The notes below the pieces were generated by a model. That model was given only the letters and a program-made list of their open reading frames with translations, ran no database searches and had not been told where the DNA came from. Shown here piece after piece: positions 1-63,639 of a stretch of DNA of 64,000 nucleotides; within the stretch, counting starts at the first letter, position 1, and every line of letters starts with the position of its first letter. The translations under genes were made by a program, and so were the position numbers. The stretch is from Amoebophrya sp. A120 (lineage: Eukaryota > Protista > Dinoflagellata): contig CAJINV010000018.1 in NCBI GenBank assembly GCA_905178155.1, positions 407,028-471,027 on the forward strand. The letters are read 5' to 3'.

Positions 1-3000
1 AGACGCTCATCAGCAAATCTCGCTCCTTCTTCAACCTGCCTAGTTCGATCTCGTCCACATTCACATCTTCATACCGCTCCAAGTAGTCGTCCAGCCGCTC
101 CACGCGTTTCTTGAAAACGTGCCGGAGGTACTGTCAAATGCAAAAGTGTCTGGGTCTGGAAGAATGCAGACTTGTCATGCATATTTTGTATGATGACTGA
201 TGCCTCCAATGCATGATCTAGCAACACAGATTTTTAGAGGGCTTCCTAATGCCTATTTCGCATGAGAAATGCCCTCTCAGCGTAACACAAACTGGAGTCC
301 TGTTGCTGGTCATGCAATACAGATTTTTTTGGAATCCAAAGAAAGCATTACAAGTTGCAATCTTCCAGTAGACCCAGACATTTTTGCAATCCATAGGTAT
401 ACCTGGTTCTGCATTCGGAGCTGATACTCCTTCAATCTCGCCCCCCTCTATCAAAGTGAAAAATCCCCCCTCCCCATATTGAAACGGAGATTTCAGTTGC
501 TGGATTTGTGTACACAGATCAGCTCTGTCTTGCTGTGAGGCACTGCAGACAAAGCCTAAGCCTGTGTAGGTTTGTTTTGATGTAGGTGCTTAGCATAGCA
601 GAGGCATGCCATGTAGCCGCAACAGCAAGACAAATCGCCCGCATAGGCCGTCGGATTCTTTGGATTTGCCCTCTTGCAAGAGCGACAGGATTTGTGGTCA
701 CAAATCAGCATCACAAATTTTTAGGAACATATTGTTCAATATGGGGAGGGGGGATCTTTCCTCACAATAGCCTCGGCTCCTGCACGATGGTCCGGACGAG
801 ATTGTGCTGCGGCTTGAACTATGCACTGCAAATATGTCTGAGTCTGGAAACTTGTGATGCAAGTCAGTCAATAACAAATGCACTGTAATTATGCGCCGCC
901 AAGCATGACAAGTTTTCTCGTGCTTCTGTGTTCTTGCGTATTCCACATGACAGGCGAGAGAAACTGTTTGTGGTCAACACGCAACACAGATTTAAGGGCC
1001 ATGCCAGATCAGCATGTGAAATTTCGCAACCCACCTCCAGACCCAGATCGATGTTTGCATTTCATATGAACAAGTTGTGGTCAGTCAAACCACTCAGGTC
1101 GAAGCTTGTGTATCCTGAGCAAAAATGTCTCCACCCAGAGTTGTCATGCAATTTTGCAGCTACAGGAAGATTTGTAATGCGCATCCCCATGAGAGACATT
1201 TCCAGTCACGTTTTGCACTTTGTAATGCTGTCGACAGGATGAGTAGATGGATTGGTGTTGCGGCTGTACTTGCTCGCCCGCACTACGATACAGAGACGAA
1301 CTTGTCATGCTTGACCCCCAAAACTTCTGGATTTGTGTTGCGAGATATCGCCCATCTTGACTCTGGTGTGGGGACGTTTTTACATAGGATATTGTGGTCG
1401 CCAAATTTACGTGTGCTGCCGCCGTGAAACGCGGAAAAATGGTGCTCGGAACAGCTACAGGCGACTGCTTTTGCTGCCCACCTGCAGCAGATGAAACAGG
1501 AGCACTCCGCTGCGCGAGCGGGACGCTGAGTAACCGCCAGAAGTCGTTTTTCACACCAGGAAGTAAACCACTACCGCCGGGCTTTGCTTGTTCGGCTGAA
1601 GCTGCTGCGCCGGCTCCTTGCGGCAGCGCTGCCGGCTGGCCAGCTCCTGCCAACCGCGCTTCTTCCTCTGCGATCAATGGTTTCATCTGCCGCTCTAGGT
1701 AATATGCATTGCAAATATGTCTGGGTCTGGAAGATTCTGAGACTTGGTTGGTTGGTTGGTTGGGTAGCGCCTGTCGCCGGTGCAGGTCCCGCCCTCCATC
1801 GATTGCGATCCGGAGTAGCCGGAACACAAGGCCCTAGTGGCGCAATCGATCGACGAAGCCCTATGCACGTTTTGCATGAGCCATGATGCACGTTTTGCAT
1901 GAGCCATGATGTCTGTGATGCATGCCCTAGCATCACAGATGTTTTGAGGGCATCTTGATGCCTATGTATTCCGCATGGCAAATGCCCTCTCCGCGTAGCA
2001 AAAATCGCATTCCCTTTGCTGCTCATACAATACAGATTTTTTTGGAATCCAAATGCAGCATCACAAGTTGCATTCTTCCAGAGCCAGACATTTTTGCATT
2101 TGATAAATAAAGCGGGTCGACCAACTGAACTGTGCTGTAAGCCTTGTCAAACAAACCACCGAAGGAATTCACGCAGGCTGGCGCCGCTTTGGACCCGTTT
2201 TCGATCGGGCGGCTGGTGATGTATGCAGTGGAAACAAATATGTCTGGGTCTGGAAGAGTCACGCTGTTTTTGCATGACACAGAAGGTCTGGCATGGAGGA
2301 TCTAGCATCACAGGTCTCGAGAAGCTTCCGCAATGCCGAATTCGCATGACAAATCCCCCATTTTGCTGGTAGAAAGTGGGCAGCTTTTGCTATCAATCTA
2401 TGCATGAGAGATTTTTCTGTGTTCTGAAATGCGCATCACAAGTTTGTGTTCTTCCAGACCCAGACATTTTTGCACTCCATATAATGTGCTTTGCGATCAG
2501 CGGCTCCTGCTCCATGATATGAATTGCAAAAGCATCTTCGCACTAGTGGTAATTGCATTACAAATTACCTCAGTATGAAAAACGGAACTTGTGATGCTGT
2601 TTTATCTTGGGATGGAGATTTGTGATGCACAATTGCAATTACTACGAGTGCCATACGTTTGCAATGCATACATGATCGCCCTCGCGAACTGTTGCAGCAC
2701 CTCCTTCACATCGGTCAAATACGCGATGGGGGCGTAGTTCGTCGTCTCCTCAGTGACGGTCGAAACCGCAGCGTCACCTCCAGTGCCCCCAGGTTGTAGT
2801 TGCTCCCCAGAAGCTCCACCTCCTGCTGTTGCGCCACTGCCACCCGGACTAGAACCGGACAGTAGCGACGCGGCGCTTCGGGTCTGCTCCACGGATTGCT
2901 TTTGCGGAAAGAACTTGTGCCAGGTTTTGTCCTTGTCCAAAACTTTCTGCCAGCAGGGCAACTCTCCTATGAACGCCTCAGGTTGGAAATCCTCAGAGTG

Positions 3001-6000
3001 GAAATAGTTTGTGATGCAGAAAAGCATTCCAGTTGAAGCGCCACTTCTAGGCGGCGCATGACAAATTTCCCGGGCAGCACGCAAAGCATGCCTGTCATGC
3101 TCGTCAACGCAAAGGGGTGCCCAATCCTCGTGCTAATCAGCACTCCTATTCTCAAACCCGTAGCAGGACAGTTGTCGGCTTCCATTGCGGCCTCTGCAAT
3201 ACAGTCTTTTTTGCGTCGCATTTCATGCATCACAAATTATTTCCACGTTGAGGATTTCCATTCTGAGGCGTTCATATCTCCCTCCACAGCGTCGGCCGCG
3301 GCGGCCCCCAGTTTTACTTCGTGCATACCGAAAAATAACAGCCGGAGGTTATTGAGATGAAAAATCCCCCCTCCCCATACTGGAAAGGTATGTTTCTAAA
3401 AATTTGCGCTGCTGATTTGTGGCCACAGATCCTGTCTCTCTTGCAAGAAGACAACTCCACAGGCACAGGCTCTGCCGCATTATGCAAGCGGTTTGTGATG
3501 CTGTTGCGCCTACAGCGTAGACGTTTCTCATGCTAAGTGCCTAGGCCAAAACCTCTCCACTCAGGCTTGGCAGGAGCCTGCAGTCCTCTACTGCAAGACA
3601 AACCTGATTTGTATACGCAAATCCAGCATCAGAAACTTCCGTTTGATATGGGGAGGGGGGATTTTTCCTTTTGATAGAGGTAGTTGTTCAGAGAAGCAGC
3701 GGTTTCGATCGCTTTGCTGCCCATCGGATTGTTATGCCCAGAAGTCCCCCTCGGATTCCTATTCGGTTCCTTCGCGCAGGCCTGGCCGATTTGCTCCAGT
3801 TTCACTTTGGATGCGATGACGTATTGGTGGAACCATTTCAGAAGAAACTCGTCCGTGATCAATTTCGTCAAGTCTTCATTTCTCGTATTTTCGAAAGATC
3901 CCCGTCGCTCGTCCAGCACATACCGGATGAAATGCGATCCGATGGTACTGTCTTCGAAGCTTGCGCGGAAGCTGTTTCGCCGCACTTCGTCCATCCAACT
4001 GAAGCCGAAGATGCTCGCAACCAAGACATATCAAATGCAAAAATGTCTGGGTCTGGAAGGTTGCAACTTGTCATGCTGGATTTGGATTCCACAATAAATC
4101 TGTACTGCATGAACAGCAAAAGAGGCCCAGTTTCTACTGCCGCGGTGAGAGGGCATTTCTCATGCAGTATAGGCATCAGGAAGCCCTCGCAAAATCTGTG
4201 ATGCTGGAGCATGCATCACAGACATCAGGAGTCATGCAAAATGTGCATGACAAACCTTGCACTATTCCAGACCCAGACATTTTTGCATTTGGTAAGACCT
4301 TCGCAGCGGAGCTCTGCTCGATTTGCTTCGCCGCGTCGCTCTGAAAGTCGGACAAAAGCTCCTCGTAGGCTACGTGGCTCTGGATCCTCTCGTGCACGGA
4401 GACGGACTGGTCCTCACAGACAAACAGCCCATCGATGTGATCATTCCTGTATTGGGGTGAATCCGGCCTCAAGGTCGTGCGTATCCTGAGTAAGAGCGTC
4501 CCCATACCAGAGTCAAGATGGAAAATCTGCTAGACAAATCAGGCAACTTTGGTTGGTTCGCATGACAAGTTTGTCCTCGTAGTGTAATCCTATTTAGGTA
4601 GTTCAGCAGCATCACAGATCTAGCATATCATGCAATTTAAATTTATAGCATCACAAATTCCAAAACACCACTAGAAAATGCTTCTCATGTGGCTTCGCAT
4701 GAGAGACTTTTTTGGCATGCAGATTTGCATGACAACGCTGGGGTGGGGATGTTTTTACTCAGAATAGTGCTTCCTGGTTGATCATCTCCCGCATACGGGT
4801 TCTGCAGGGGCTTGCACCGTATCCTGTGCAAAAGTATCGTATTCGGATAAATGCAAGCCTTGCATTACAAATATTTTTCTTAAGGTAAATCAGCATGACA
4901 AATTTCATTTCTCATGCTGAGGAAATTTGTAATGCATTTATACGAGTACGATGCTTTTGCAGTTCATACACCGGCCGTTGGTCGCGACATCGAGAATGTT
5001 GGTGAAGGTCCGCTGCACATTAACTACGCCGTCTTGCAGGTAAAGCGACCCTCTGGTCGGGCAAACCGCCAAAGCGGAGGCGTATCACATAGAAAAAAGC
5101 CGGCGGGGCATATTTGTAATGCAAAAATAAATACACAAAAAAATCTGTATTGCATATCCGAAACAGCATGCTATGAGGCCGCCCATGACAGATTTGTCTG
5201 TGTATCTATTTTTGCATTACAAATATGCCCTGCCAGCTTTTTTCTGTGGGATAAGGCGATGGCGATACCGGGACTGGCTTCGGGGCGGCGTTTCGGGCCG
5301 CCAGTTGTGGTATCAAATGTAAAAATGTCTGGGTCTGGAAGGCGGCAGCTTGTCATGGTAAATCTGAAGCATGCAAAAATCTGTGTTGCATGAGTGCCAA
5401 AAGCTGTCCACTTTTGACCAAGCTGGAAGGGAGTTTCTCATGCAGGTGAGGCATGGCAGAGACCTCGCAGAGCCTGTCATGCTAAGTCCCGCATTCCAGA
5501 CCTCATGGGTCATGGAAAATCTGCAAGTTTGAACTTTTCCAGACCCAGACATTTTTACAATCCATATGTGGTTTCCTGGAGCATCTCATCGAACAACCGG
5601 TCGGCACGCTGCACAAAGGTTTCATCCGAGTTCGTTAGATTCGGTTTGTAATAGGAATACCACATCCGCGAAAGCAAATACCGGTCCGAGATTCGACGCA
5701 TTGGAATCACGAGCGACGGGTTTGTCGCATAAAGAGCTGCGGACTTGCTCCTCGATCCAAGCAGGACCAAAGTCTCCGGGTCGGTCACTGGATTTTTGTT
5801 CACCATTTCCGCATTGACGAGTAGCCTCGCCGCAGTCGTGTCGCGCGTCGCGAGCAACCGGAAGTGCCAGTCGCGGAGCATTTCCTCTAGCTGCTCGAAA
5901 GAGTCCTCCGTAGACATGGGTGGTGGCGGAAAGCGTTTTCCGATGATCTGTCTTTTCGGAATTTCATGCTCGTTTTCCCTTTTCTCCCTCGCTTGCTGCA

Positions 6001-9000
6001 GGACTATTTTCGCCTGTACTTCCTTTCTGTTGATCCTTTGCAAGTTCTCGTTTTCCTTCGTGACAAAGTTCAAAATATCGAAAGGAAAAATCCCCCCTCC
6101 CCATATCGAAAACGAAACTTGTGATGCTGTATTTGAGGTCACAAATCAGATTTGTCTTGCTGGCGAGGACTGCAGGCCCATATCCGGCCTGAGTAGACAA
6201 GTTTTGGCCTGGGCGCTTAGCATGGCAGACGTCTACACTGTAGGAGCAACAGCATGACAAACCGCCTGTAGAATGTGGCGGAGCCTGTAGACTTGCCTTC
6301 ATGCAATACAGCGACGATTTGTGGTCTCAAATCTGCATCACAAATTTTCAGAAGTGTTCCGGTTTGGTATGGGGAGGGGGGATTTTTCCTCACAATACAA
6401 AAGCTCATCCAGATAGTCGATCAACTTGAAAATCTTCTGCAGAGTGCCACTAGGCGTTCCGTCAGCCGCAAACTCGTGACTTACTACCCGGTCCATAAAC
6501 TGGTAGTGCGGGGCTGTTTGCGACACCAGGTCGAAATGCCTTTTCAGAAACCCGGTCGGACCAAGCGCAGCCTTCATTTCAGCGAGGATATTGAGGTAAA
6601 CGTTTTCCAGCTCCGGGTAGTGTGCTTCCAGCACTCCTGCGCCGTGCTCTCCAGCAGCAGCACTAGTGTCAACATCTCTTTGATCGCAAGAAAAAAGTGT
6701 TACAGTTACACATTGTGTTGCAGGAGCCGCAAGACAGACAACCTTTGTCATGCAGGAAATGCTTGCGAGGTTCGTTTTCTACATATTTTCCCTTATGATC
6801 TTTGCATTACAAGTTTTCTCTGCCACACAGAGAAAATCTGTGATGCAGAAACTCCAACAAATGTGTAACTGTAACACTTTTTTCTTGTGATATCTTTGAT
6901 CGAATGGCAACCTCGTGAATGGGTTTAGAATCTCTACCGCATCGTCTTTGCTGAACTGATATCAAATGTGAAAATGTCTGGGTCTGGAAGAATGCGTGAT
7001 TTGTCATGCAGCTTTTCCATGACCCATGAAGCCTGGAATGCAGGACCTAGCATGACAGATTCTGCGCAATCTCTCTCATGCCTTTCCTGCATGAGAAACT
7101 CCCTCCCGACTTGGTCAAAACTGGACGACTTTTGGTAATCATGCAACACAGATTTTTGCATGCTTCAGATATAGCATGACAAGTTGCATTCTTCCAGACC
7201 CAGACACTTTTACATTTGATAACTGAAAAACTCCCTGGCTCCTCGCCAAAGCCGTCAGCTCCGGGTTGGTTTGGAACTCCATCTCCGCTCGATTTTTCAC
7301 CCGGACCGCCGTCTTCAACATCAGGTGCTCTGCGCCCTTGTAGATCTGTTTATCAAGCTGGTTTGAGCTAATAGGCATTGCGTCCTGCAGTCCGCGAGTG
7401 CCAATCCAGGGGGAAGCGGGGCCTCCTGTTTCGCCACCAGCACTTGATGCTTTCTCTTCGGCGGCCGCAGCATCCTGCAACCTCCGCGGCACCATCCCCA
7501 GCGGGTTTGGCTTCGCAATGTCAAGTATCAAATGTAAAAATGTCTGGGTCTGGAAGATTGCAACTTGTCATGCTAAATCTGCAGCATGCAAAAATCTGTG
7601 TTGCATGATTACCAAAAGTCGTCCAGTTTTGACTAAGTCGGGAGGTAGTTTCTCATGCAGGATAGGCATTAGAAAGGTCTCGCAGAATCTGTCATGCGAG
7701 GTCCTGCATTCCAGACCTCATGGGTCATGGAAAAGCAGCATCACAAATCGCGCACTCTTCCAGACCCAGACATTTTTACATTTGATATCAAGAGCATCCT
7801 CTGTAGCCGCGTAGCCCGCCGGATCGTTTTTGTACAAGAGGATCTTAAAGGTCTGCAAGTCCGTGCCCCGCCGTTCCTCCGCCCTGTTGTTCCACAAAAG
7901 CTCTCGAACCAGATTCTCCGGCTGCACCAGAATCTCTGCGGCAGGTTTGTCCGCGGACGTTTTGGCCGTCGGCGACTGGACCAGGACGTGGAAGAGCGAC
8001 TTGTGGAACTCAGGAGACTGGAGAAGTTCTTGTTGCTCTCTAGTACTTCTAGAAGCAGGTTGCTGTCCTCTCGCTGGCGATGTTGCAACCAATTTCTCCG
8101 GATGCAGAATTTCTTTCACCAGTTTCTCGTACTTTTCATTCTGGTATTCGTTTTGATCTTGACGAAAAACCATCCTGTGCAAAACTATCGTACTCGTATT
8201 GCAATCATGCATAATACAAATCTTTTGATTACGGTAAATCCGCATTACAAATTTTATTTCATCTCATGCTGCGGAAGTTTGTAATGCATGTATACGAGTA
8301 CGATACTTTTGCAGTTCATAAAAACCCCAACTAAACCGTATAACCCGCTCAGGTGTTACAATCTCAAACGTTACAATAGAATTTGGAAACCTGTGATGCA
8401 AGAGCGCATGATCTAGCCAACTCTCATAGGATTGCGCATGACAAGTTCTAGAGTCCTAATCCGCACTACAATCTGGCGAAATTTGTATTGCAGAAAGTGG
8501 AATGCTGTCTGAGTCTGTCATACTCATCATGCAACACAAATGCCAGATTCTATTGTAACGTTTGAGATTGTAACATCTGAGCAGGTTATAAACCGCAGAA
8601 CGACGGCTTGGTAGTAGCTGTACCTCGTGGGGAAGTGGTTGTAGTAGCAGGGGCATCAAATGTAAAAATGTCTGGGTCTGGAAGAATGCAAGATTTGTGA
8701 TGCAGGTTTTCCATGACCCACGAGGTCTGGAATGCGAGACCCAGCATGACAGATTCTTTGAGGTCTCTATCATGNNNNNNNNNNNNNNNNNNNNNNNNNN
8801 NNNNNNNNNNNNNNNNNNNNNNNNNNNNNNNNNNNNNNNNNNNNNNNNNNNNNNNNNNNNNNNNNNNNNNNNNNNNNNNNNNNNNNNNNNNNNNNNNNNN
8901 NNNNNNNNNNNNNNNNNNNNNNNNNNNNNNNNNNNNNNNNNNNNNNNNNNNNNNNNNNNNNNNNNNNNNNNNNNNNNNNNNNNNNNNNNNNNNNNNNNNN

Positions 9001-12000
9001 NNNNNNNNNNNNNNNNNNNNNNNNNNNNNNNNNNNNNNNNNNNNNNNNNNNNNNNNNNNNNNNNNNNNNNNNNNNNNNNNNNNNNNNNNNNNNNNNNNNN
9101 NNNNNNNNNNNNNNNNNNNNNNNNNNNNNNNNNNNNNNNNNNNNNNNNNNNNNNNNNNNNNNNNNNNNNNNNNNNNNNNNNNNNNNNNNNNNNNNNNNNN
9201 NNNNNNNNNNNNNNNNNNNNNNNNNNNNNNNNNNNNNNNNNNNNNNNNNNNNNNNNNNNNNNNNNNNNNNNNNNNNNNNNNNNNNNNNNNNNNNNNNNNN
9301 NNNNNNNNNNNNNNNNNNNNNNNNNNNNNNNNNNNNNNNNNNNNNNNNNNNNNNNNNNNNNNNNNNNNNNNNNNNNNNNNNNNNNNNNNNNNNNNNNNNN
9401 NNNNNNNNNNNNNNNNNNNNNNNNNNNNNNNNNNNNNNNNNNNNNNNNNNNNNNNNNNNNNNNNNNNNNNNNNNNNNNNNNNNNNNNNNNNNNNNNNNNN
9501 NNNNNNNNNNNNNNNATTTGTGATGCTGTGAACAGGATGAGCAGATGAATCTGTGATGCGGCTGCACTTGCTAACCTGCACTACACTGCAGAGTGCAACT
9601 TGTCATGCGTGACTCACAAAATCTCCTAGGTTTGTGTTGCAAAATCCCCATCCTGACTCTGGTGTGGGTACGTTTTTACTCAGGATACAGCAACGTGTTT
9701 CTTCAAAGTTTTCGGTAAGTAATCCTTCCGACGGAGAATTTGGATCGGGAACAGTGGCATCTCCGGAATCGCGTTGTCATAGGAAGTGAACCGGAGGAAT
9801 TTTTCCAAAACCTGTCTGTTCGTGATGACTTGGAGCTTTTTCGGTTGTTCCCTGTGTTCCACCTTCTCCCACTGCGGCCCCGTCGGAGCAGAGGTAGAAC
9901 CTCCGACCGACAAAGAGCCTGCAATTCCTCTTTCCCGCAGCTGTGACACGGACTTGTTGCTTTCTTTCAGAAAACTATTACTCGGCTCGAGCAAGCAGCC
10001 CATGTTATGGATTGCAAATATGTCTGGGTGTGGAAGGTGGCAACTTGTCATGGTAAATCTGAAGCATGCAAACATCTGTGTTGCATGAGTGCCAAAAGCT
10101 GTCCACGACTTTTGACCAAGTTGGGAGGTGGGAGTTTCTCATGCAAGATAGGCATGGCAGAGACATTATCGCAGAGTCTGTCATGCTAGGTCCCGCATTC
10201 CAGACCTCAGGGGTTATGGAAAATAAGCATGACAAGTTTACACTCTTTCAGACCCAGACATTTTTGCACTTGATACATGTTGATCGTGTGCAAAATGTGG
10301 ATCGTGTCGCCCTCTTTCAAACCTGCCTTTTTCGCCCAGCCATCGAAGTCGGACACTTTTGTGGTTTGTTGCTCTTTCAACTTCTTGATCAGAATCCGCC
10401 CGTGGTGCTGCGAGAAAAAGTCCTCCAACTCGGGCTTCTGACCCGCGATGTTCGCGATCTTTGGGCTGATACTGATATCGCCGTAGAGCTTCTGCAAATT
10501 CTCCTTGGTCGGCTCTTGAATTCCGTGAATTTGCTGGTCTAGGGAAAAGCTCGTGCCGAAATCGGATACAAACTCAAAGTATCAAGTGCAAAAATGTCTG
10601 GGTCTGGTGGAAGAGTGCCAGACTTGTCACACAGGTTTTCCATGACCCATGAGGTCTGGTATGTAGGACATAGCATGACAGATTCTGTGAGAGTTCTTTC
10701 AGGCCTATCCTGCATGAGAAACTGCCTCTCGATTAGGTCAAAAGTGGACAGCTTTTGGTAGTCATGCAACACAGATCTTTACATGATTCAGATTTAACAT
10801 GACAAGTTGCTATTCTTCCAAACCCAGACATTTTTGCATTTGATACGAAGTCCTCAATTCCGAGGCCAGACAGAAGCTCCGGACCGCTGATAGAAGTACT
10901 TCCCGGGTTGGTATGAAATGCAAATATGTCTGGGTCTGGAACAATGCAAGACTTGTCATGCAGATTTTTCATGACCCATGATGCCTGTAATGCATCACCT
11001 AGCATCACAGATTTTTAGAGGACTTCCTAATGCCTAGTCCGCATCAGAAATGCCCTCTCCATGTAGCACAAACTGGACCACTCTTGCTGATCATGCAACA
11101 CAGATTTTCTTTGAATGCAGAGACAGCATTACAAGTTGCAACCTTCCAGACCTGGACACATTAGCAATGCATAGTTGGTCATCTGTCTTGTGAAATCATA
11201 GGTCAACACGTCGAACTGTTTCTTGAATTCCTCTATCGCAAGAAAAAAGTGTTACAGTCACACATTGTGTTGCAGGCCAAGCAAGACAGACCAGCTCTGT
11301 AATGCCGGATACGCATAGAGGCCTCGTTTCATAGGTGTTTTCCCGTAGGATTTCTGCATTACAAGTTTTCTCTCTCATGCTGAGAAATTTGTGTTGCTGA
11401 ATTGACTACAAATGTGTAACTGTAACACTTTTTTCCTGGGATATCCTCGTCGTAATTCTTACTGTTCTTCATCAAATCTGTCAAAAGACACCGGTTCCCG
11501 AACCGGTTTATTTCGGAATTTATCAAATGTAAAAATGTCTGGGTCTGGAAGATTGCATGGTGGTCATGCTTGTCTGGCATGACTCTTAAATCTGTCATGC
11601 ACGTTGCCCAAGAGCAGCGTTTTTCTGTCATGCGGAGACGCAATTTGTCATGCAGAATAGGCAACACCCACAAGCTCAGAAATTTGTCATGCTGAGCCAG
11701 CACTTGAGGCCTCCTCATGCTACGCCACTCAGCATCACAAGTTTCCAGACCCAGACACTTTTACATTTGATAGAATTTTTATCCTTGTATTCCTCCAACC
11801 CAATCTCGAACTTCTCGAGCTTCTTGTATGGAAGTGTCAGAATCGAAATTGACAAAATCGAAAAATTTGTGATGCAGAAAATCGATACCAGTTGGCTCCT
11901 CAGTTTGTAAGTGGCGCATGACAAATTTCGGGAGCACTCAAATCCAGTCTGTCAAGCTGTTTGGGCAAAGAAGACTGCTCCTGTCATGCTACTGTGGCAG

Positions 12001-18431: not shown

Positions 18432-18716
18432 TGTTATGGAACGAAAAGACGGACTGCCCATATCGTGCAGCATGACAGCGACTGCGACAACAGCCAGTAC
18501 TATCTATCATGTGTAGAGGCCCGTCACTTTTTGATGCACCTTGGAAACGTGGACGAGCTACATCTTCACGCGATCATGCGTGGATGGTACTACTCATGTA
18601 TGCGTTGCGAGGTGGAGCTGCAAGCACACGCACCTGTGTAAGTAAACACGTCATGACAACATCAGATCTCAGCTCATTTCATACCGCAGTTGCGAACTCT
18701 CAATTTGAATGTTCAC

Positions 18717-35015: not shown

Positions 35016-35294
35016 TATCCTGAGTAAAAACGTACCCACACCAGAGTTGTAATGCAGATTTGCAAAGACAGGAAGACTTGTAACGCGCATCCCCATGAGA
35101 GCCATTCCCAATTGTGTTTTGGAATTTGTGATGCTGTGAACAGGATGAGCAGATGAATCTGTGATGCGGCTGCACTTGCTAACCTGCACCACACTGCATA
35201 GTGAAACTTGTCATGCGTGACTCACAAAACTCCTAGGTTTGTGTTGCAAAATCCTCATCCTGACTCTGGTGTGGGTACGTTTTTACTCAGGATA
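35016..35294. mobile_element. Introner, family C, upstream of the protease ATG (probable 5' UTR)
   Basis: Perfect DR AAAAT. Confidence 0.9.
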
Positions 35295-36411: not shown

Positions 36412-36466
36412 AAAAAAAAACAGAAGGACTTGGACCAGGAGCTGCTCGCTCTGGTATCAATCCAGC

Positions 36467-36600: not shown

Positions 36601-36737
36601 AACCCCGATACTTATCACAGACCCTATCCCACCCAAACCTTAGCCACCGAGCTCGTCTCCGCTCTGTTTCGCAGTGAAGATCAGAAGGAGCTTGCCTCCA
36701 CTACGTGCTAACGCGGAGATCAGCGGCCGGCTCCTAA

Positions 36738-41500: not shown

Positions 41501-42484
41501 CTGGAAGAATGCAAGTTTGTGATGCTTGGCCGACAAGTTTGAAAAGTCTGCCATGCTTGTTGTGCTACAGTGCCACTTCGTTGTCATGCAAAAAGGCGCT
41601 TTGTCATGCGGTTGGCGCTAGACATAGCCGCTGGCTCAGAAACTTGTCATGCGCGGCCCCGTAATACAGGTTTCGCATCATTCCAACATTAGCATCACAA
41701 CTTTCCAGACCAATACATTGTTTGCAGTGCATATCCGTTCCTCAGTCTCGATTTCGTTCTTCTCGTCCAACCGTTTCTGGTATAACAATGCACAACTCCC
41801 CCTCCCCCTCATTTGTATTGCATGAACGGCAATACAAGCACCAGCAACGATGCCGGTTTTACATGACAAATTTGCACTAGAGTATAGTGCTATTTGGGCT
41901 AGCATAACTTGTCATGCAAGCAGTGGTAACAGGCAAAGGGCGGATTAAGTACTTATTTTGCATGACAAATGAGGGGGAGCAGCAGGGGGGGTTGTGCACC
42001 GTCATATCTGGTTCCGCAGCCGCAGGTTCAGAATGTCCACCGCCTTTTTCTCGGTTTCCTTCGTCTTTTGAATCGCTTTCTCCTCCTCCAATCTTAGCAG
42101 CTGGATCCGGTTCTGCAACAAGACCGCATCCTGTTCCGCGCGCTTCCGGGAGACGGTGGCGGTGAACAGCGCGGGACGGGTGGAGGAGTGGGAGTGGTTG
42201 GTGGTGTTGTTGTCATGGTGCTGGTGGGAGGAAGACGAAGAGGGGGGGAAATTACTGCTCATCTTCATTCCACCACCTCGAGCGCTGCTGGTGTTAGAAG
42301 ACGCGGCTGTCGTAGTACCGCCGGCAGGAAAGTGGGCGTGGTGTAGTTGTGGTGGTCCACCTCTCGCGGATGATTGCTGCGAGGAGGCATTTGAGAATAT
42401 GGGGCTCTTGTGGCTGCTGGTGCCGAGGGTCACGGTTTTCTTTGTTGTCGCCCTGGAGCCGGAGGACCCACCGAATTGTTCCAT
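38524..42484 (-). CDS. Coiled-coil protein of unknown function (multi-exon)
   Basis: Heptad-rich exons AEQDAVLLQNRIQLLRLEEEKAIQKTKE, EERKRAELVRKQ and MEREELSLIKKLQETQQRQQAAYEVLE. Frame restored across elements at 41781 and 41474. Remaining intron boundaries are approximate. Confidence 0.65.
41474..41733. mobile_element. Introner, family A (interior like 31230)
   Basis: DR TTCGT/TCCGT. Confidence 0.85.
41781..42006. mobile_element. Introner, family I
   Basis: Perfect DR TCTGG. Confidence 0.9.
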
Positions 42485-50777: not shown

Positions 50778-53700
50778 TCACCCTTGAGCAAAATTGGACA
50801 AATCCCGAAGCAAGGCATCGGCCTCCTTGAACAAAAGTCGGACGGGTATGCATTGCAAATATGTATGGCTATGGACTTGGATCATGAAGTAAAAATGCCT
50901 GTCTTGCATGCCCGCCTTTCGTCCTGTGATGTAGATGCGCCGCTGCAAGAAGTTAGTAGTCCTCGTGTATAAATTGTTTTGCATATAATGAAGATTGTGC
51001 GAAAGAGCAACAGCGACAACGAAAAGCGAGGCCTTCCTTTGTTCTGATTCGCACATCGGCGTGATGAAGAAGATCTGATGCGCTCTAACAAGCTCTATGC
51101 TCCACCACGACCACGACTACAACAACGGATAATGTCGATGAATAGGCCCCGGCGCCCCCCGGGGGCGGGGCCCGGTGGCGGCGGCGTCCGCGGGCTCTTG
51201 TCGAGGCCGCCCGGCAGGCGCCCCCGTAACTTGCGCCCTTCCGCCCCCGCCTTTTTCTTCGGTTTGCGACTTTTTTTCTTCACTTTGCGACTTTTTTTCT
51301 TCACTTTGCGGCTTTTCTTCTTCAGTTTGCGACCTTTTTTCCTCAGTTTGCAAATTTTTTTCTTCAGTTTGCGACCTTTTTTGCTATTAATTTTCGACAC
51401 AAAAAAGCGGCACAGAATGGCTTCCAGGCGGGAAGCGCCGGGGGCACCGGCGGGGCAGCGCGCGGCGCACCCACAAGCTCCGGCGGCCGCCCACAAAGCC
51501 GCGCGGAGCACCTTCCACGCTGCGCACGCCTTTTGTTTTTTGGCTAGTTTCGCGAGTTTTTTCGTGCCCCGGCTTTTTTTTTATGTCCCGGCGGCATTTT
51601 TCCCTGCTTTGCGCGGCCAAACAGGACGCCGCTTGTCATTTTTTTCCCTTTAAGCAGGTCCCAATAATCTTGCGCGCCGGAACGTACCTGCACCGCGCCG
51701 ATACGCCCCAACTTGTTTTGCTTCCACGGGATTTTCCTTTCCGCTGGAGCCCTCTTAAGGTCCACTTTCCCGCGGTTCTGCGTCGCCCACGAGTCCGGAA
51801 AAAGACTTCGGGATTACTTCGGTTTTACTTAGGATTCACTTAGGCCAACACTTAGGTTTATCGAGAAAAACCAATACTAAAAGCTCTATGCTCCACCACG
51901 ACCACGACTACAACAACGGATAATGTCGATGAATAGACACGACATCATGCATAGAAATTCAACTGTAACGGTTCGCCCACTACTTCACAGGTAGGACGAC
52001 TTCTGAGTAGAACCATACACACCTTAAAGACTTATTTGCAATGCGTAGCGCGCTTCTGCTGTTCCACCACGGCGCCCGCGGCTCTGATGTATTTTTCGTC
52101 GTGCGCGGATCTGAATAGCCGGATCTCTTCTTCTGGCACCGCTGGAGGGGAAACATAAACAAGATCAGGCTCCTGATGTTGTTCTCCGGCCGTGCTGCTC
52201 GTGCCGCTGCTTTCGCTGGAAAAATATTCGTCGTGGTCCAGAAGAGGATCTTCCTCTTCTGCTTCAGGAAGCAGGTCAGAATCCGAGTCGGCGACGACTT
52301 GCTGCACCCTTCGGAAACCTGGTCGTGTAGTATTGGCAGCAGGCGGAGGCGGAGGTGGCCCCCGCGAGTAGAGCACATCTTCACGAAGATCTGCTTCTTC
52401 CTTGCCGGCCCTGATGCGTTCGACTTGGTCGGCTTTGTTTTCCAAAAAGTGCTGGCAAGCGTCGTGCATGGAGGGGGGGAGCCGCGAGAGAATGGCATAC
52501 CGCGCCAGGGTGCTTTTGGGCATCAAGTAGTTCTGCGCCCCCTCTCTTTGCCTCGTTTTTAGCGAATAAATTTTGTTTCTGTCCACCTCCTGGCAGGAAT
52601 ATAGCTCGCCTTCATCTTCTTTCTTGCTCTTCCCTGAAGTGGCGGGCCTTGTTCCTGTGGCAGTTGCTGTTGGTGTTGTCGTGGTTGATAGTAGTTGTAT
52701 TCCCGGTCCTTTGACGCTATAGGTGGTAAAGCTCCACTGCGCGTCGGAGTAGTCAGAGTTCAGCACTTCCTTGCGCGCCTCGTCCAGCACAGTTTTGTAG
52801 TCGGCCCCGTACTCAGTCTCGTTTTTGTTCGGCATGGCAATGCGAAACACTTCGCTGACATCCACCGCCATGCGTTCCTCCAAGCGCACTCGCATCCACA
52901 CAGCTTCGAGGGCTCTAGCAAGAAGACGCGTTGCTATTGCCTTAGCTGCAGGGTCAGCGGCGCCAGTCCTCGTGGCGCATGCGCCCCTACTCACCAGGCC
53001 CGCTGCTTCACCCCGCTCGCGTAGTTCTCCGATATTCGGAAAGCGGTAGGACCTTCTGGATCGGGTCCAGCAGAAGCTCCTGCCACACCTCTCTGCTTCT
53101 ACCACGGGGGGCGCGACAGGAGTTGCGGTGTTGACGTGTGGCGTAGGTACAGTTTTTGGAGCTGCTCCCATTTTTGCGACGTCCTCCCGAGATAAAGTTT
53201 CCCCTTCTGGTCTCTTTCTCCTTTTTGGCAGCTGCTTCCGACTGCGTTGGCCGCTGATGATAGCTCGCTGCAACATCTCTCGTCGCAGTTGCTTCATATT
53301 ATCATTATGCGACGAAGCGCCATTTTCTACATTTACTTTTTTTGTATCAGGATGCTCAGTATCAGTATCTTGCTGGCCAAACCAATCGTCCAGCATCCCG
53401 CGCGCCGCCTCCCAAACTTCGTCGCGCGTCCATGTTGTCTATCAAGTGCAAAAGTGTCTGGGTCTGGAAAAGTGTAAACTTGTCACGCAGCAGATTTTCC
53501 ATAACCTTAACCCATGAGGTCTGGAAAGAACGAAATGGAATGTGGGATTTAGCATGACAGAATCTGCGAGGTCTCTGCCATGCCTATCCTGCATGAGAAA
53601 CTCCCTTCCATGTTGGTCAAAAGTGGACAGCTTTTGGCACTCATGCAACACAGATTTTTGCATGCTTCAGATTTACCATGACAAGCTGCCACCTTCCAGA

Positions 53701-56700
53701 CCCAGACATTTTTGCATTTGATAATGTCGCTTCGGAGGAGGTCTTGTCAAATTCAAAGAACCTGGCCAGCTCTGCTTCTTCCGCCAAATACGTAGCGATC
53801 TGGGCTGCCTCGAAGAAATCCCGAAGCAGAGTGACCAGCCGCGGATCAAAAGCAGTGCCTTGAGTCAGCGTCTGAATTTCGAGGGCTGTTGCCGCGGCCG
53901 CTTCCAACTGTAAAACATGGAAGCGGGGCTGCCCCGTGGTAGGTCGCGCGTGCAATGGCGCCGCGCTGGAAAACCAATAGAAACGCCACACCAACTCCAG
54001 ATTTGCTACCAGCTGCTCCGGGGTAGGCACAGTTTGGCGGCTATGATTCTTTGTCAGTAGGTCGATGACAGCGACATACTCGAGCGCGCCTTCCTGCATG
54101 TACCGCTCCGGCTCCTCTAAAAGCTCAAGGCCAGCTATGGATGTGTCAGGTTTGAAATCGTCAAAGTTGAAATAGTTTGTCATGCATAAAACGCATACCG
54201 GTTAGACCTACAGTTTGTAGTCGGTGCATGACAAATCTTCCCGGTCCCGGAAGCGAGTCTGTCATGCGGTTTAGGGCAAAAGAGCTGCCTTCTGTCATGC
54301 TAGTTAGCAGTCCAACTTTTGACCCTTACCAGGACTATAATCTACCTCCCGTGGGTCCTCTGCAATAGAGTCACTTTCTGTGTCGCATTTTATGCATCAC
54401 AAATTATTCCAACTTTGACGATTTCAAACCTGACGCTTCCATACCAGCTTCAGATAGCATTGCAAACGTGTTTTGCTCCGCAACGGTTTTCCGCTGTTCG
54501 ACATGTGTATACATCCACGCCTTCCAATTTTCGTTAATGCGGCTCTGCGCCTCCGTTTCTGCAAGCTCCGATGCGCGTACGACATCTTTCACCGCACCCA
54601 TCTCCGAAATCACCTTGTCGCGCCACTCGCGAGAAGCCTGACGCTGGGCCTCAGGAGAAACTACGGGCGCATGACTTCGAGGGCGTAAGAACGCTGTCTG
54701 CCTGGCTACTTGTTCCTTGCGCATTGTCTTCACCAAGTCGCTGAGCCGTCCTTCTGCATTAACCAGGGCGGGAGAAATGGAGTTCTTCGCGTCCCTGCCA
54801 TATGCTGCCACAGCACGCGTCATTTCCCGCAGCGCTTCAAGCTCGTAATTCAGGAACTGCGGTCCCCGGCGTCTCAGCCAGTCACGCCCCAACGCCCGAT
54901 ACAGGTGCGCGCGAGCCCGTGTGCTTTATTGTGAGGAAAAATCACCCCTCCCCAGGCCCAGATTGAAAAGACATCCTTCTGAAAATTTGCGACGCAGTAG
55001 ATTTGTGGCCACGAAACATTTCTGCCACGCAAGAAGGCAATTGCCGGGATATGCGCGGCCACAATAAGTATACCGGGCGTTATGTCATGCGGACTGGCCT
55101 CTAGAGCAGGAGGCCTCTCCCATGCTATAAACAGGCACACCATTGATTACGCTTCCAAACAGGACGAGAGTCAGGCTGCGCCTGTTTACCGCAAGATAGA
55201 TTGAATTTGTGTACGCAAATCCAGCATCAGAAACTTCGTGTCGATGTGGGATGGGGGATTTTTCCTTTTGATACGCTCTTATTGGCAAAAAGTGCCTGAC
55301 AGCTGGGCATCGCCTTCAACTTCCCTCCCTGCACCCACTCTTTGAGGTCTTTGTTGAAACGACTTATGCATCGCAAATATGTGCTGGTCTAGGTGTGGAA
55401 ACTCGTGATGTGAAGGTATCATGGATGGGTCTGGTACTTATTTCAAGGGCAGCCAAGCATGAGAAGTCTATGACGCCGTCTGATACGTAAACGTAGCACG
55501 CATGACAAAGACAAACTGCGTCTTTGCACGACAATAAAGTAACGCCTTTGATGCTGGCTATCGTTTTGCAACACAGATCATTTTTCAGGATGAATGCTAG
55601 ACATGCATCACAAGCTCCACTTTTCCAGACCCAGACATATTTGCACTGGATAAGACTACCACTACTCTTTGTATCAGAAAAGGGCTGGCCGTCGCGTCCT
55701 GTGATGGTGATGCTGAAGGCATTTTTTTCATCACTCACGTCCTGCTGTTGAGCACCAATGATTGGCGTTCTACTTGATTTTCCCGGCGGCATTGCTGACT
55801 CAGTCCTTTTTACCACGTTTCGCGTTCGGTTTTCTGCACTTTTTGCCTGCTTTTTTACGCGACGTCCAACTACAGCTCCATCCCTACTTGTTTCCGCCGT
55901 ACCAAAGGCATCACTCGCGGTCCCCTCATTTTCGCTGGTACTGCAAAAACGCGAAGTCGTCCTCTGGTGCTGGTCCCCGTGGTCTTCCTCGTGTTCTTTC
56001 TGCAGTAAAATCTCGAAGCGGTTCTCTTTCGTATTGAGCAATGCCGGAGCTCCTGCAGCCTCTTTTTCTGGTCGTCGTGTGATGGTTTCTCGCCTTTTGT
56101 TTTCCATAGAAGCACTCACTTTCTCTGAAAAGGATGAGCGGCCAGACTCTGCAACGACCTCCGACGCCGAAAAGAAACTATCCCGCGCACCATTGATGTG
56201 CTGCGCACCAGCCGGGACTATTAATTTCCCCGCTGCGAGGCACTCGGATGCCCTCTGCCACGCCACAGCAATCACGTTCGCGTGAGCTGGATCGGGCCGC
56301 AGGTGCCGGCCCGTCAACGGGTAGATGAGGCGCCGCGCCGCGTAGCATCGCCACCAGTCTTGGAAGAGGTTTCGGTTTTTATCACATGTAAAAATGTCTG
56401 GGTCTGGAAGAATCGGGACTTGTGATGCACATTTTGCATGACCCGTGAGGTCTGTGATGCTGGTGCTAGCATCACAGATTTTTTGAGAGCTTCTTGATGC
56501 TAATCACGCATGAGAAATGCCCTCTGCGCTTGCCAAGAACTGACTCCTGTTGCTGCTCATGCAACACAGATATTTTTAGAATCCGCAGACAGCATTACAA
56601 GTTCCAACCTTCCAGACCCAGACATTTTTGCAACCCATAGTTTTTCACGAATGGCAATTTGCCGCTGCACACGTGGATGTTGGTATCCAGATCCGCACTA

Positions 56701-59223: not shown

Positions 59224-62200
59224 TTATCTGATAAAAAACCGGTCCTGTTTTCCATCTTCCCAATGGCAAATCTGCGCCCCACAGGTCCAGCCTTGCTGTT
59301 TCCAGCGTCTCGGGTCAGGGTTGTGTTCTGAAGCAAGATCGGAACGAGAATCCGCTTGAATCCGCCTCAATTCCTCCCGCGAAAAATTTTTCCATTCGAC
59401 CGTGCACTTGAGCAGGGTGATCAGCGTGGGGGATTCCAAGATGGCGAACTCCTGGCTGTAACGGACGCTTGTGCGTCTATGTATTGGGGTCTCGAGGGTC
59501 CGCAAAAATGTCTTCCCAACACTGGTCGTCGTGCGACAACCGCCCGCGGCGGCCACGGCCTTCATATTTCACCCGGGATATGAAGTTTTCATTGTCTATC
59601 CCGTCAAAGAACTAACCCACTTCAGACGCAGAGTTGTCATGCTAAACGCAATGCGGTAGTGCAGTGTTGGCACGCAATTCTGGGATCATGTACATGCACA
59701 GAAGTAGCGTCTCTGTCTCACGATGAAAAATTTGTCATGCCAAACCTCCAATCGAAACCACCACACCTTTTATCAAGATCTTTTCACTCCACAGGTGAAG
59801 ATGATTGTATAGTTATGCTTTGGGCGCCGGCCTCAGTTTGAACATGCATTTTCAACATTCTTGGATCTGGTCCGGTGGGTACGTTTTATTTGCCTCCGGG
59901 ATACTATCCAGGTCAAAGTCCGTGGTGTAAACGTGGTCCTGCGATGAGTCGCCACGCTCGTGGGACCGGAGGTGTCTCAACCGCAGGTGGTCCTCATCTG
60001 GCTTCGCGAGGGTCCCCAGAGCTAAACCCGTTTTGCGCATGAAGACTTTTGGGTAATAGGAAGCGAGCGGCGTCTCTTTACTTCCGAACATGCGCTCCTT
60101 GGTTCTTTCACTGAGGGACAGCGCCTCGGAACCTTCATCTACAGGCACGCGCTCCTGGTTGGAAGCTTGCACCCAGTGTAAGTATTTGGGAAAGCTTGCC
60201 TCCAACACCGAGCTGGGATCATTAGTAGGACGAGAAGGGAAGGAAAGCCGCGCGTCGTTCTGTTCTTGGTCGTGTCGTGTAGTTCCTCTAGTCGAAGATG
60301 TGGCACCAGGGTGGAACACAGGAGGCGTCGTTCCTGCTGTAGTCCTGTCCACCTCAATCGACGCAGAAGCTCTTCGTCCTGCTTGATACTCAACATCCGT
60401 TGGGTCTGTGTAGTTCTGGGTGCTTTTACCAGAGAAATTTTCATCAATGCTTTTCTCGAGAAGTTCTTGCGAAAGCCACGTTTCGGAATATTGGTGAACA
60501 GTGTGCCCCTCGCCGGATCGTGCATACCGAGGCCGGATGTGGTCTCGGTAACGGTCCTCCGGATTCAGGCGGTCATCCGCCTGATTCGCAGAGCATTTGA
60601 AGCCGCCGAGACGGAGAAGTTGCTGACTTGCCGGCAGGCGATGTCTCGCCACATCTTCAGTATGCAAGAAGCCCTGGTGAAAATCCTGGTTCGCAGCTGC
60701 TACCGGTGGCACTCTTGTAGGGGCAAGAGACACCTTGCGGCTTCGTATCCAAATGAAAACCAGTTCCAGTATGTAAAACTTGTGAACTCGTGGCGTCTGC
60801 CTTCCCAAGCTGCAAGATGCAGACGCAGCCTTGCAGCTTTGCTGCAACAAATATAATAATTAAAGGACCTTCAGCGACTTGGAGGACTTCTCTCTATTAT
60901 TATTTGCTTGAGAATCTTTATCAATCTAGGAGCGCGAGCGCACTCACCGTGGAGGTGCACCTTTGTTCATATATATTAGAGCCGCATCATCTTGCATCAT
61001 GAGCAGTTTCAACATCATCTTGCATGAGCAGCGGTAGCTCGGAGCAAGACAATCTTTTTTCTACTGCCAAAAAAGTAGTACTAATAGGACGGGAACTTAT
61101 TGTCACTAGGATACTCAGCTCTTTTCGAAGGGCGTGTTCCATTTCCTGTCGCAGCGATGCAGTTTTCTTCTCCTCTCTCGACATAGAAGTATAACCTGCT
61201 CAGCTGTTACAATCTCAACTGTTACAATAGAATCTGGAAATCTGTGATGCAAGAACTGCATGATCTAGCCTACTCCCATGAAATTGCGCATGACAAGTTT
61301 CGGAGTCCCAAACCCACCTGAAATCCGGGAAAATTTGTATTGCGAAAAGCTCAATTCTCTCTGCGTTCCTCATGCTCTTCATGCAATACAAATTCCAGAT
61401 TCTATTGTAACGCTTGAGATTGTAATGTTTGAGCATGCCATAAGAAGTTGTGCCATCTTCTGCTTCCAATGCAGACCCAGCTGCCGTGTGGTGGCGTTCG
61501 TACCACCGCGCGGCGGCTCGTTTCAACATCGCACTTCCGAGGTAATGCCGCTTCGCGTTCTGAGCGAATTTCTTTATCTCCTCTTCCTTTTCAGGGTGTC
61601 GACTACTTTCCGGACCAGGTAAATACGAATAAATGTTCGGCCAAGTGTATTCAGTGCACAACTACGACTCCTCCTCATTTGTAGGGCACGGGCAGCAACA
61701 TTTCTGCCGTTGCTTATGTCATAAGCAACGGCAGAAATGTAAGCTTCCGCATGACAAAGACAAATTTTTTTACGTGCGGACTGTAGTACTGTTTGAGCTT
61801 CGGAAATTTGTCATGCAGACAGTGCTCAGGAGAGGCACGGCCACGGTATGGATTTGGGTTTTTGCATTACAAATGAGCGGGAGGGGGAGGTGTGCACTAC
61901 CTTCGTAAAGTGTCTTGACCGATCCGTCCATATCCCCCCAGGCGCGAAGACGACGACGCCGCAGCGAGTCCTGGCACAGCCAGGTATTGCGAGGAAAAAT
62001 CCCCCCTCCCCATATCGATAAGAAGCTTTGTCATGCTGATTTGTGACCACAAATCGCATCTGTGATGCAAGAAAGCAACGCCACAGGCTCCGCCCCATTA
62101 TGCAGGGGGTGTGTAATGCTATTGGGCCTACGGCATAGACGTTCCCCATGCTAAGCGCCTAGACCAAAACCTCTCGACTCCGGCACGATATAGGCCTGCA

Positions 62201-62369
62201 ATCCTTTACTGCAAGACAAGATTTGTGTTCACAAATCAACATCACAAATTTCGTTTTCGATATGGGGGGGGGAGATTTTTGCTCATGATAACAGATAGGA
62301 AAAGATCTGACCACAGCCACCTAGTTGTGCCAAGAGGTGCAGAATATTTTTAAAAATTGGCCGGGACAT
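59224..62369 (-). CDS. Protein of unknown function with a signal-peptide-like N-terminus; 3' structure uncertain (may end at 59852 or be disrupted)
   Basis: ATG at 62369 (MSRPIFKNILHLLAQLGGCGQIFSYL). Frame restored across elements at 61985, 61648 and 61190. Link to ORF 59852-60850 is not resolved. Confidence 0.55.
59565..59803. mobile_element. Possible highly degenerate introner
   Basis: Weak IR TATTTCACC../..GGTGAAGATG and internal TTGTCATGC motifs; no DR. Confidence 0.35.
61190..61442. mobile_element. Introner, family H
   Basis: Perfect DR AGAAG. Confidence 0.9.
61648..61907. mobile_element. Introner, I-like, degenerate
   Basis: Perfect DR AAGTG. Confidence 0.8.
61985..62290. mobile_element. 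Introner, family B
   Basis: DR CCAGG/ACAGA. Confidence 0.82.
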
Positions 62370-63370: not shown

Positions 63371-63639
63371 TATCAAATGTAAATATGTCTGGGTCTGGAA
63401 GAATGCGCGATTCGTCATGCAGCTTTTCCATGACCCATGAGGTCTGGAATGCAGGGCGTAGCATGCCAGATTCTGTGTGATCTCTCTCATGCCTATCCTG
63501 CATGAGAAACTCCCTCCCGACTTGGTCAAAACTGGACGACGTTATTTGGTAATCATGCAACACAGATTTTTGCATGCTTCAGATTTAGCATGACAGGTTG
63601 CATTCTTTCTTCCAGACCCAGACACTTTTACATTTGATA
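63371..63639. mobile_element. Introner, family A (no 5-bp DR)
   Basis: Both TIRs intact; interior like 6960. Confidence 0.88.

What the first reader, a model, noticed from the sequence alone, without database searches (positions are those of the whole stretch)
132..63639. ~70 TIR elements act as non-GT-AG introns under an 'element + 5 nt' removal rule
Seen: elements run TAT..ATA, have family-specific TIRs and a 5-bp DR of arbitrary sequence, and show no conserved GT/AG. Removing element plus one DR copy restored the frame at all >50 junctions I translated. It also rebuilt the pepsin motifs (YGTG, DGILGLG) and the metacaspase motif DSCHSG, so the host genes look functional. The same genes also have normal GT-AG introns. 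Known: IR/DR-bounded non-canonical introner elements are reported from Amoebophrya, and their excision mechanism is unresolved. Inference: a second, TIR-guided excision system (RNA or DNA level) works beside the spliceosome.
Basis: partly seen in the sequence, partly recalled or inferred. Interest (0 to 1): 0.92.

Follow-up and report, generated by a model that had tools for sequence, protein, structure and literature searches.

The report
Known transposon introns lacking GT-AG ends
Genes of the marine parasite Amoebophrya strain A120 are interrupted by dozens of small transposon-like inserts without normal splice signals; this is a published intron class, and the inserts are likely cut from the RNA together with exactly five neighbouring bases by a still unknown, probably altered, splicing machine.

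Summary
Observation confirmed; the class is published. A pepsin exon matches an Amoebophrya sp. A120 protein 100%, and the 68 complete TAT..ATA elements fit the A120 introner elements of Farhat 2021. The direct repeat is 5 bp: 44 of 68 perfect here, and 233 of 300 in a second assembly found without using repeats. Element+5 removal gives long frames. Frame fixes only 2 mod 3; the +5 itself comes from pepsin orthologues (7 of 8 junctions gap-free). GT-AG is possible at any register in 9 of 271 elements. Refinements: removal tolerates decayed repeats and both orientations; the transcript-5' T never varies while the 3' A does (0 vs 8, p=0.008); the arms show no G-U bias; families share an internal motif. 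RNA-level removal is likely, DNA excision unlikely. A separate second system is not shown; a relaxed spliceosome is somewhat more likely. I saw no RNA joint over these elements directly. The scan noted similar introns in three other genomes.

The parts
132..8590 (-). 20 elements inside one 1174-aa frame (2-8774): 132-395, 449-769, 820-1066, 1111-1391, 1703-2105, 2222-2481, 2518-2670, 2968-3276, 3350-3676, 4029-4294, 4482-4766, 4820-4968, 5083-5253, 5311-5566, 6076-6397, 6682-6892, 6960-7221, 7526-7787, 8171-8320, 8339-8590
8654..9687 (-). two half elements of different families on either side of an N gap
10006..17190 (-). 14 elements inside one 1638-aa frame (9683-18433): 10006-10275, 10580-10845, 10912-11173, 11234-11443, 11521-11772, 11827-12132, 12315-12540, 12596-12847, 12929-13204, 13253-13423, 13843-14171, 15721-15985, 16017-16346, 16839-17190; no homologue found for its largest exon
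18435..18767 (-). uncertain old element, TAT..ATA with repeat decayed to 2/5; separates two open frames
19136..20441 (-). uncertain 1.3-kb insert with inverted ends and a 24-bp direct repeat; no Pfam match in its five longest frames
20502..24678 (-). 3 elements inside a 1259-aa frame: 20502-20742, 22674-22872, 24417-24678
27891..29771 (-). element 27891-28150 and two half elements at the second N gap (28473, 29771)
30717..34237 (-). 8 elements in the pepsin gene: 30717-30921, 30995-31142, 31230-31481, 31554-31815, 32317-32468, 32512-32796, 32905-33170, 33242-34237 (the last with a nested insert)
29772..34784 (-). pepsin-type aspartyl protease gene (P0002, PF00026) with GT-AG introns at 30481-30649, 31944-32183, 34305-34481
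35016..35294 (.). element with perfect repeat upstream of the pepsin start, no clear reading frame
39023..39328 (-). GT-AG intron skipped in an RNA-run contig; shows ordinary splicing in this strain
   Evidence: table 8 record 11
41474..42006 (-). 2 elements (41474-41733, 41781-42006) in a 260-aa frame
44316..48245 (-). 7 elements in the metacaspase gene: 44316-45993 (nested insert), 46051-46220, 46268-46495, 46619-47208 (nested insert), 47266-47517, 47607-47934, 47980-48245
   Evidence: last exon matches PF00656 at E 3e-4, just under the curated cut-off
50847..56639 (-). 6 elements inside a 1213-aa frame: 50847-52047 (nested insert), 53440-53723, 54136-54443, 54927-55273, 55365-55652, 56380-56639
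59597..62290 (-). 5 elements inside a 481-aa frame: 59597-59903, 60746-61113, 61190-61442, 61648-61907, 61985-62290
63371..63639 (.). main-family element with no direct repeat (0/5); left out of the oriented statistics

Best explanation
These are introner elements of Amoebophrya sp. A120: 150-370-bp non-coding inserts with TAT..ATA inverted ends and a 5-bp direct repeat, likely spread as non-autonomous DNA transposons and likely removed from pre-mRNA, element plus five bases, by a relaxed spliceosome that would measure its cuts from the end motif. Shown: anatomy, 5-bp repeat, both orientations, +5 removal in the pepsin gene, no GT-AG. Inferred (about 0.9): removal is at RNA level. Inferred (about 0.7): the cut is set by distance from a shared end motif (TAT, seven bases, AAA), not by repeat identity or by a perfect hairpin. 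Inferred (about 0.45): the cut falls after the fourth repeat base, so the intron starts N-T-A-T, the invariant T stands at donor position +2, and the acceptor is placed four bases past the element end regardless of sequence. Inferred (about 0.5): the catalyst is the U2/U5/U6 spliceosome with U1 replaced by an end-binding protein.
For: Identity: P0002 is 100% identical; 425 of 542 arms match the published A120 motif TAT-N7-AAA. +5: P0002 reads across all 8 pepsin junctions. Against the transcriptome-derived orthologue P0003, +5 is gap-free at 7 of 8 junctions, +2 at 1 of 8, +8 at 0 of 8. Ruler rather than microhomology: 18 junctions with 3/5 or 4/5 repeats still sit in long frames. Orientation-free: main family 62 same, 49 opposite, 11 unclear. 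Polarity: the terminal base varies 0 times at the transcript-5' end and 8 times at the 3' end in 271 elements (p=0.008); 0 vs 6 in the 204 outside the window. Register: the conserved D of DGILGLG needs repeat base 5 from the downstream copy, so the cut is at or before base 4; a cut after base 1 would make a stop in L039; summed codon likelihood ranks register 4 best among those allowed, weakly (-0.3 vs -1.3, -3.1, -3.8, -9.3). 6 of 7 GT-AG donors in the window begin GTA (3 of the 7 are hand-picked candidates). The annotated non-canonical sites listed for A120 mostly begin NT (Table S4). Spliceosome: 83 of 89 proteins found and U1 snRNA undetected in A120 and A25, whereas strain Kv has U1 and mainly GT-AG introns. 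Precedent in Fritillaria.
Against: I saw no RNA joint over an element: the displayed joints were 15 of 1196 and all came from the DNA run. P0002 is an annotation, built on transcript alignments according to the paper's methods passage, not a read. No polarity in the one branch-point-like motif (40 vs 55, p=0.15). No AG excess at the register-4 acceptor (23 of 271, expected 23.9) and +1 is arbitrary, which the known catalytic core does not tolerate well (recalled). A G preference at the would-be +5 position seen in the window (17 vs 5) did not repeat outside it (43 vs 39). The polarity test was noticed post hoc and is one of several tried. Annotated ends are confounded by aligners snapping to GT or AG inside the repeat. 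The elements do fold far better than shuffles (z -2.9 to -16.3 for 20 sampled), which suits a hairpin-guided rival equally.
Confidence: 0.5

Rival explanations
1. A separate, non-spliceosomal RNA cut-and-join system (euglenid-like) recognises the folded element or its end motifs and ligates the exons.
For: No GT, no AG and no polar branch motif; both orientations work; strong folding; euglenid non-conventional introns are released as full-length circles without lariats (review passage).
Against: No G-U over A-C bias between the arms (212 vs 216), and TIR positions 4 and 5 mismatch in 109 and 96 of 240 elements, so the stem is poor just inside its end. No candidate enzyme is known. The U1 loss reported in these strains points to change in the spliceosome itself.
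Confidence: 0.33
2. The elements are excised from DNA in some life stage by a transposase-like enzyme, leaving one repeat copy, as with ciliate internal eliminated sequences.
For: Transposon-like symmetric ends, a shared double-strand motif and a strict 5-bp repeat. Repeat positions 3 and 4 mismatch about half as often as 1, 2 and 5 (21, 19, 10, 11, 19).
Against: DNA contigs run from exons into elements at depth 41-48, like element-free stretches. No element-skipping joint among the 15 shown of 1196; this is one sample, probably the assembly's source, and contigs drop rare variants. Transcript polarity of the end base. Decayed repeats are tolerated. No germline-soma nuclear split is known in Amoebophrya, so excision would lose the elements (recalled).
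Confidence: 0.05
3. The elements are spliced at cryptic GT-AG sites by an ordinary spliceosome and the +5 rule is only apparent.
For: 9 of 271 elements allow GT-AG at some register; the paper reports IR/DR structure in 15% of A120 canonical introns.
Against: 262 of 271 allow none; orthologue colinearity demands exactly +5 at 7 of 8 pepsin junctions; the paper reports 65% non-canonical RNA-supported introns in A120.
Confidence: 0.03
4. The elements are self-splicing ribozymes.
For: They are strongly folded and carry a shared internal motif.
Against: No Rfam family in the window at gathering scores; at least nine sequence families of 150-320 bp; both strands would have to be catalytic; frames survive nested inserts of 0.3-1.4 kb.
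Confidence: 0.04

Closest known systems
Introner elements among the non-canonical introns of Amoebophrya sp. A120 (Farhat et al. 2021, PMC7789003; read: abstract, passages, sections 10-12, supplement parts 2-3 of 5; figures not seen)
   Same: Same strain by protein identity, inverted-repeat motif TAT + 7 nt + AAA, direct repeat at the borders, about 240-nt length, mixed genes with both intron kinds, no internal transposase.
   Different: [quoted passage not shown] With TAT/ATA as ends I find one length (5) and distinct end families. A uniform +5 rule, the polarity of the end base and the shared internal motif are not in the text I read; Figs 3, 4 and S19-S25 could show some of this.
A120 introner families in Gozashti et al. 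2025 (PMC12130899; read: passages, and 21 of 58 A120 rows of the family table)
   Same: Most of the rows seen are classed as TIR DNA transposons of unknown superfamily, with consensus lengths such as 149, 252-260, 278 and 305 bp and mostly non-canonical sites; three rows give a 5-bp duplication, one by manual inspection.
   Different: Automated duplication lengths run from 2 to 5 and the splice modes are mixed; no single rule is stated in what I read.
Fritillaria borealis non-canonical introns (review passages PMC11282704; abstract PMC13326754)
   Same: MITE-derived introns with TIRs and target duplications, removed by an adapted U2 spliceosome.
   Different: They have preferred sites (AG-AC, AG-AT) and duplicated U2AF; A120 has arbitrary sites and single U2AF subunits in Table S6.
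Euglenid non-conventional introns (review passages PMC11282704)
   Same: TIR-bounded, non-GT-AG, repeat-like borders, coexist with ordinary introns, mechanism unknown.
   Different: They show a pyrimidine|purine border and conserved pairing near the ends; here borders are arbitrary and arm pairing shows no RNA-type bias.

Membership tests
Amoebophrya A120 introner elements (Farhat 2021) | Occurs in the A120 genome | tested here: met
   Pepsin exon 100% identical to a protein named Amoebophrya sp. A120, which maps over the whole gene
Amoebophrya A120 introner elements (Farhat 2021) | Inverted repeats starting TAT, seven looser bases, then AAA | tested here: met
   98 of 134 window arms and 425 of 542 arms overall
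Amoebophrya A120 introner elements (Farhat 2021) | Direct repeat of 3-5 nt at the borders | tested here: met
   5 nt; 44 of 68 and 233 of 300 perfect
Amoebophrya A120 introner elements (Farhat 2021) | Repeated in families, non-GT-AG ends | tested here: met
   Nine rough end families, 28 of 67 in the largest; 0 of 67 GT-AG at any register
Amoebophrya A120 introner elements (Farhat 2021) | Removed from mRNA | tested here: inconclusive
   Indirect only: annotated protein and orthologues read across 8 junctions; no element-skipping RNA joint displayed
MITE / non-autonomous TIR DNA transposon | Short, non-coding, TIRs, fixed-length target duplication, many copies | tested here: met
   Median 263 bp, fixed 5 bp, neutral target
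MITE / non-autonomous TIR DNA transposon | Cognate autonomous element or transposase, which fixes the superfamily | tested here: inconclusive
   No Pfam match in eight frames of two long inserts; the genome was not held; the paper found no transposase in A120
Canonical U2 (GT-AG) intron | GT donor and AG acceptor | tested here: not met
   9 of 271 at any register
Spliceosomal intron (any type) | Lariat intermediate with branch adenosine; snRNP dependence | not testable with these tools
   Needs lariat sequencing or inhibition; the branch-like motif showed no polarity
Ciliate-type internal eliminated sequence | Absent from the expressed genome copy | tested here: inconclusive
   Retained at single-copy depth in one DNA run; other stages not examined
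Group I / II self-splicing intron | Conserved catalytic core | tested here: not met
   No Rfam match in the window

The most novel reading that the evidence does not exclude
All A120 introner families obey one ruler rule. A single protein reads the shared end motif (TAT-N7-AAA plus the subterminal GCAWNACA repeats, probably old transposase sites) and places both cuts after base 4 of each repeat copy. A U1-less spliceosome would thus use a transposon end as donor positions +2 to +4 and needs no G at +1 and no AG at all: a domesticated transposon-end reader turned splicing factor.
Probability: 0.25. Interest if true: 0.8.

Novelty: already known. Interest (0 to 1): 0.35.

Why it matters
The intron class is published, but how it is removed is open. 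Searches for Amoebophrya with splicing, introner or lariat terms returned no mechanistic study. Defining the ends as TAT/ATA turns an apparently chaotic set of splice sites into one rule (element + 5). That would fix gene models and makes the question testable with existing RNA-seq: elements whose two repeat copies differ reveal the exact cut. If the spliceosome does this, it works without either of its conserved intron-end guanines; if not, it is a second nuclear splicing chemistry like the unresolved euglenid one.

Tried and rejected
1) No whole genome was held, so no genome-wide transposase or snRNA search. 2) Run search: no RNA holder listed. The raw RNA runs X6 and X7 do not cover the genes. 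X5 contigs match exons exactly but thinly, and the joint table was filled by the DNA run. A second lay with RNA runs alone gave no result, so direct junction reads remain open. 3) The idea that the intron ends ATA-N with N not T: T was 5-6 of 67 in the window but 22-24 of 133 outside, expected 24.7; rejected. 4) G preferred at TIR position 4 in the 5' arm: 17 vs 5 in the window, 43 vs 39 outside; rejected. 5) RNA-type wobble selection in the arms: 212 vs 216; not supported. 6) GCAWNACA as a polar branch point: 40 vs 55; not supported. 7) Terminal variants as 6-bp duplications: 3 of 8 match the neighbouring base, near chance; rejected. 8) Annotated proteins to read the register at other mismatched repeats: none found for two large exons. 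9) Register from conserved genes in the extra loci: 6 of 24 exons had Pfam matches above 1e-3 significance. The residue choices rest on consensus motifs that I recall; the PDB alignments stop beside the junction residue, so this is weak. 10) Rows dropped: of 300 outside elements, 14 with repeats under 3/5 and 3 without a usable frame were dropped; 133 of 283 got a confident orientation, 71 more took their locus's orientation. 63371 was dropped from oriented counts, and 35016 and 27891 also from phase counts.
Full report
What is there. A scan for inverted ends with flanking repeats, an end-motif scan and a de novo TAT..ATA scan gave 68 complete elements, paired by hand, plus four halves at the two N gaps and two uncertain candidates. 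They cover a third of the window (21,174 bp; median 263 bp). The direct repeat is 5 bp: 44 perfect, 15 at 4/5, 8 at 3/5, 1 at 0/5, with other lengths at chance. Because many window seeds were found by requiring that repeat, I repeated the test independently. A 30-base end motif found 136 loci, all in one metagenome assembly. In these, 300 distinct elements were called from end motifs alone, and 233 have a perfect 5-bp repeat. The target sequence is neutral.

Which organism. A pepsin exon is 100% identical to P0002, named Amoebophrya sp. A120, with orthologues from a transcriptome (P0003) and from strain A25 (P0004). Farhat et al. 2021 describe A120 introner elements with inverted repeats starting TAT, seven looser bases and AAA, and direct repeats of 3-5 nt (section 11). 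That motif fits 425 of 542 arms. The finding is therefore the published class in the published strain. Gozashti et al. 2025 class most of the A120 families I saw (21 of 58 rows) as TIR DNA transposons.

The +5 rule. Removing element plus five bases yields frames of 1174 aa over 20 junctions, 1638 aa over 14, 1259 aa over 3, 1213 aa over 6 and 481 aa over 5. Frame cannot tell +5 from +2 or +8: 48, 44 and 43 of 68 junctions, against 7-8 for other offsets; outside the window 166, 177 and 161 of 300, against 75-93. The pepsin gene can. P0002 maps across all 8 element junctions and 3 GT-AG introns. Against P0003, +5 is gap-free at 7 of 8 junctions, +2 at 1 and +8 at 0; against P0004, +5 is gap-free at 5 of 8. 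GT-AG is possible at any register in 0 of 67 window elements and 9 of 271 overall.

RNA or DNA. In one search the DNA run X1 gave contigs running from exons into elements at depth 41-48, the same as element-free stretches, and none of the 15 displayed joints (of 1196) skips an element. This is one sample, probably the assembly's source, and contigs lose rare variants. Run X5 matches exons exactly and skips the GT-AG intron 39023-39328, but no element-skipping joint was displayed. X6 and X7 do not cover the genes. Direct junction reads were therefore not obtained; removal from mRNA rests on the annotated protein, the orthologues and the paper's RNA-supported intron counts. One sequence signal favours RNA: in transcript sense the first T never varies while the last A varies 8 times in 271 elements (p=0.008; 0 vs 6 outside the window), although copies lie in both orientations (62 vs 49 in the main family). 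This was noticed post hoc among several tests. That Amoebophrya has no separate germline nucleus is recalled, not tested.

How the cut is placed. Repeat identity is not required: 18 junctions with 3/5 or 4/5 repeats lie in long frames. The elements fold strongly, but the arms show no G-U preference (212 vs 216) and often mismatch at positions 4-5. All end families share TAT-N7-AAA. They also share an internal motif GCAWNACA, at 13.6 per kb in elements against 0.68 per kb outside, in 264 of 265 elements, typically 3-5 copies, on both strands and without polarity. This looks like a protein-binding site on double-stranded DNA, such as a transposase subterminal repeat (inference). I infer a ruler that measures from the end motif.

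The register. The conserved D of DGILGLG needs repeat base 5 from the downstream copy, so the cut is at or before base 4. A cut after base 1 would create a stop in L039. Codon likelihood weakly favours 4 among the allowed registers. A cut after base 4 makes the intron start N-T-A-T, putting the invariant T at donor position +2; 6 of 7 local GT-AG donors start GTA. It would also make 91 of 198 elements phase 0 (p=7e-4 against equal phases), like ordinary introns (recalled), though a cut after base 1 does the same and a weak symmetric target preference could also cause the bias. Against: +1 is arbitrary, the acceptor shows no AG excess (23 vs 23.9 expected) and a +5 G signal did not replicate. 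Mismatches at repeat bases 3-4 are rarer and mostly at third codon positions (12 of 16, p=0.003 given the phase mix), which may mean that either copy can reach the mRNA; this is unexplained.

Which machine. The paper finds 83 of 89 spliceosomal proteins and no U1 snRNA in A120, with single PRP8 and U2AF subunits; strain Kv has U1 and mainly GT-AG introns. Fritillaria shows that a spliceosome can adapt to MITE-derived introns; euglenids show a non-lariat alternative. I put a relaxed spliceosome at 0.5, a separate RNA system at 0.33 and DNA excision at 0.05. No transposase was found in the long inserts tested, and no Rfam family in the window.

Verdict. Real, correctly seen and already known. 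Its second-system inference is unproven. Earlier notes of this scan describe similar introns in three other genomes; I did not test them. Interest 0.35.

Noticed in passing
window 2-24904: The four frames of 1259, 145, 1638 and 1174 aa on the minus strand are separated only by two element-like inserts and an N gap, so they may be one gene of over 4,100 aa with about 40 elements; no homologue or Pfam match for the exons tried.
   Followed up: partly
window 19136-20441: A 1.3-kb GC-rich insert with inverted ends is flanked by a 24-bp direct repeat rather than 5 bp. It joins in frame under +5 only if the end is taken two bases inside, at a TA.
   Followed up: partly
window 51085-51145 and 51877-51936: A 61-bp direct repeat (98% identical) flanks a 730-bp insert nested inside element 50847-52047.
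   Followed up: no
window 33455-34190, 44507-45925, 46780-47100, 1748-1862: Unrelated sequences are nested inside elements while host frames stay restorable; the 1748-1862 piece recurs at 98% inside a same-family element in L096.
   Followed up: partly
window 36239-36386: A 148-bp copy (95%) of metacaspase exon and intron 44171-44315, ending exactly at the element border, sits in a repeat-rich stretch between genes: a captured gene fragment.
   Followed up: no
window 44160-44275, 41116-41220, 39783-39840: Three candidate GT-AG introns carry the elements' GCAWNACA motif in sense orientation 34-50 nt before the acceptor; the other four examined have none.
   Followed up: partly
L001-L136: The same end families occur in a metagenome assembly at the same density, so the elements are in a wild A120-like population; whether it is the same strain was not determined, as no locus overlaps the window's genes.
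   Followed up: partly
L039:3329-3608; L005:4330-4653; L036:3334-3590; L046:55-363: One element has an 8-bp repeat (also frame-neutral), and several with near-perfect ends have no repeat at all (14 of 300 under 3/5).
   Followed up: no
window 63371-63752: A main-family element without a repeat lies beside an inverted fragment of itself and a short duplicate of the sequence near 62635; a local rearrangement or assembly join.
   Followed up: no
window, all genes: Every gene modelled lies on the minus strand, in line with the unidirectional clusters in the paper's abstract.
   Followed up: no
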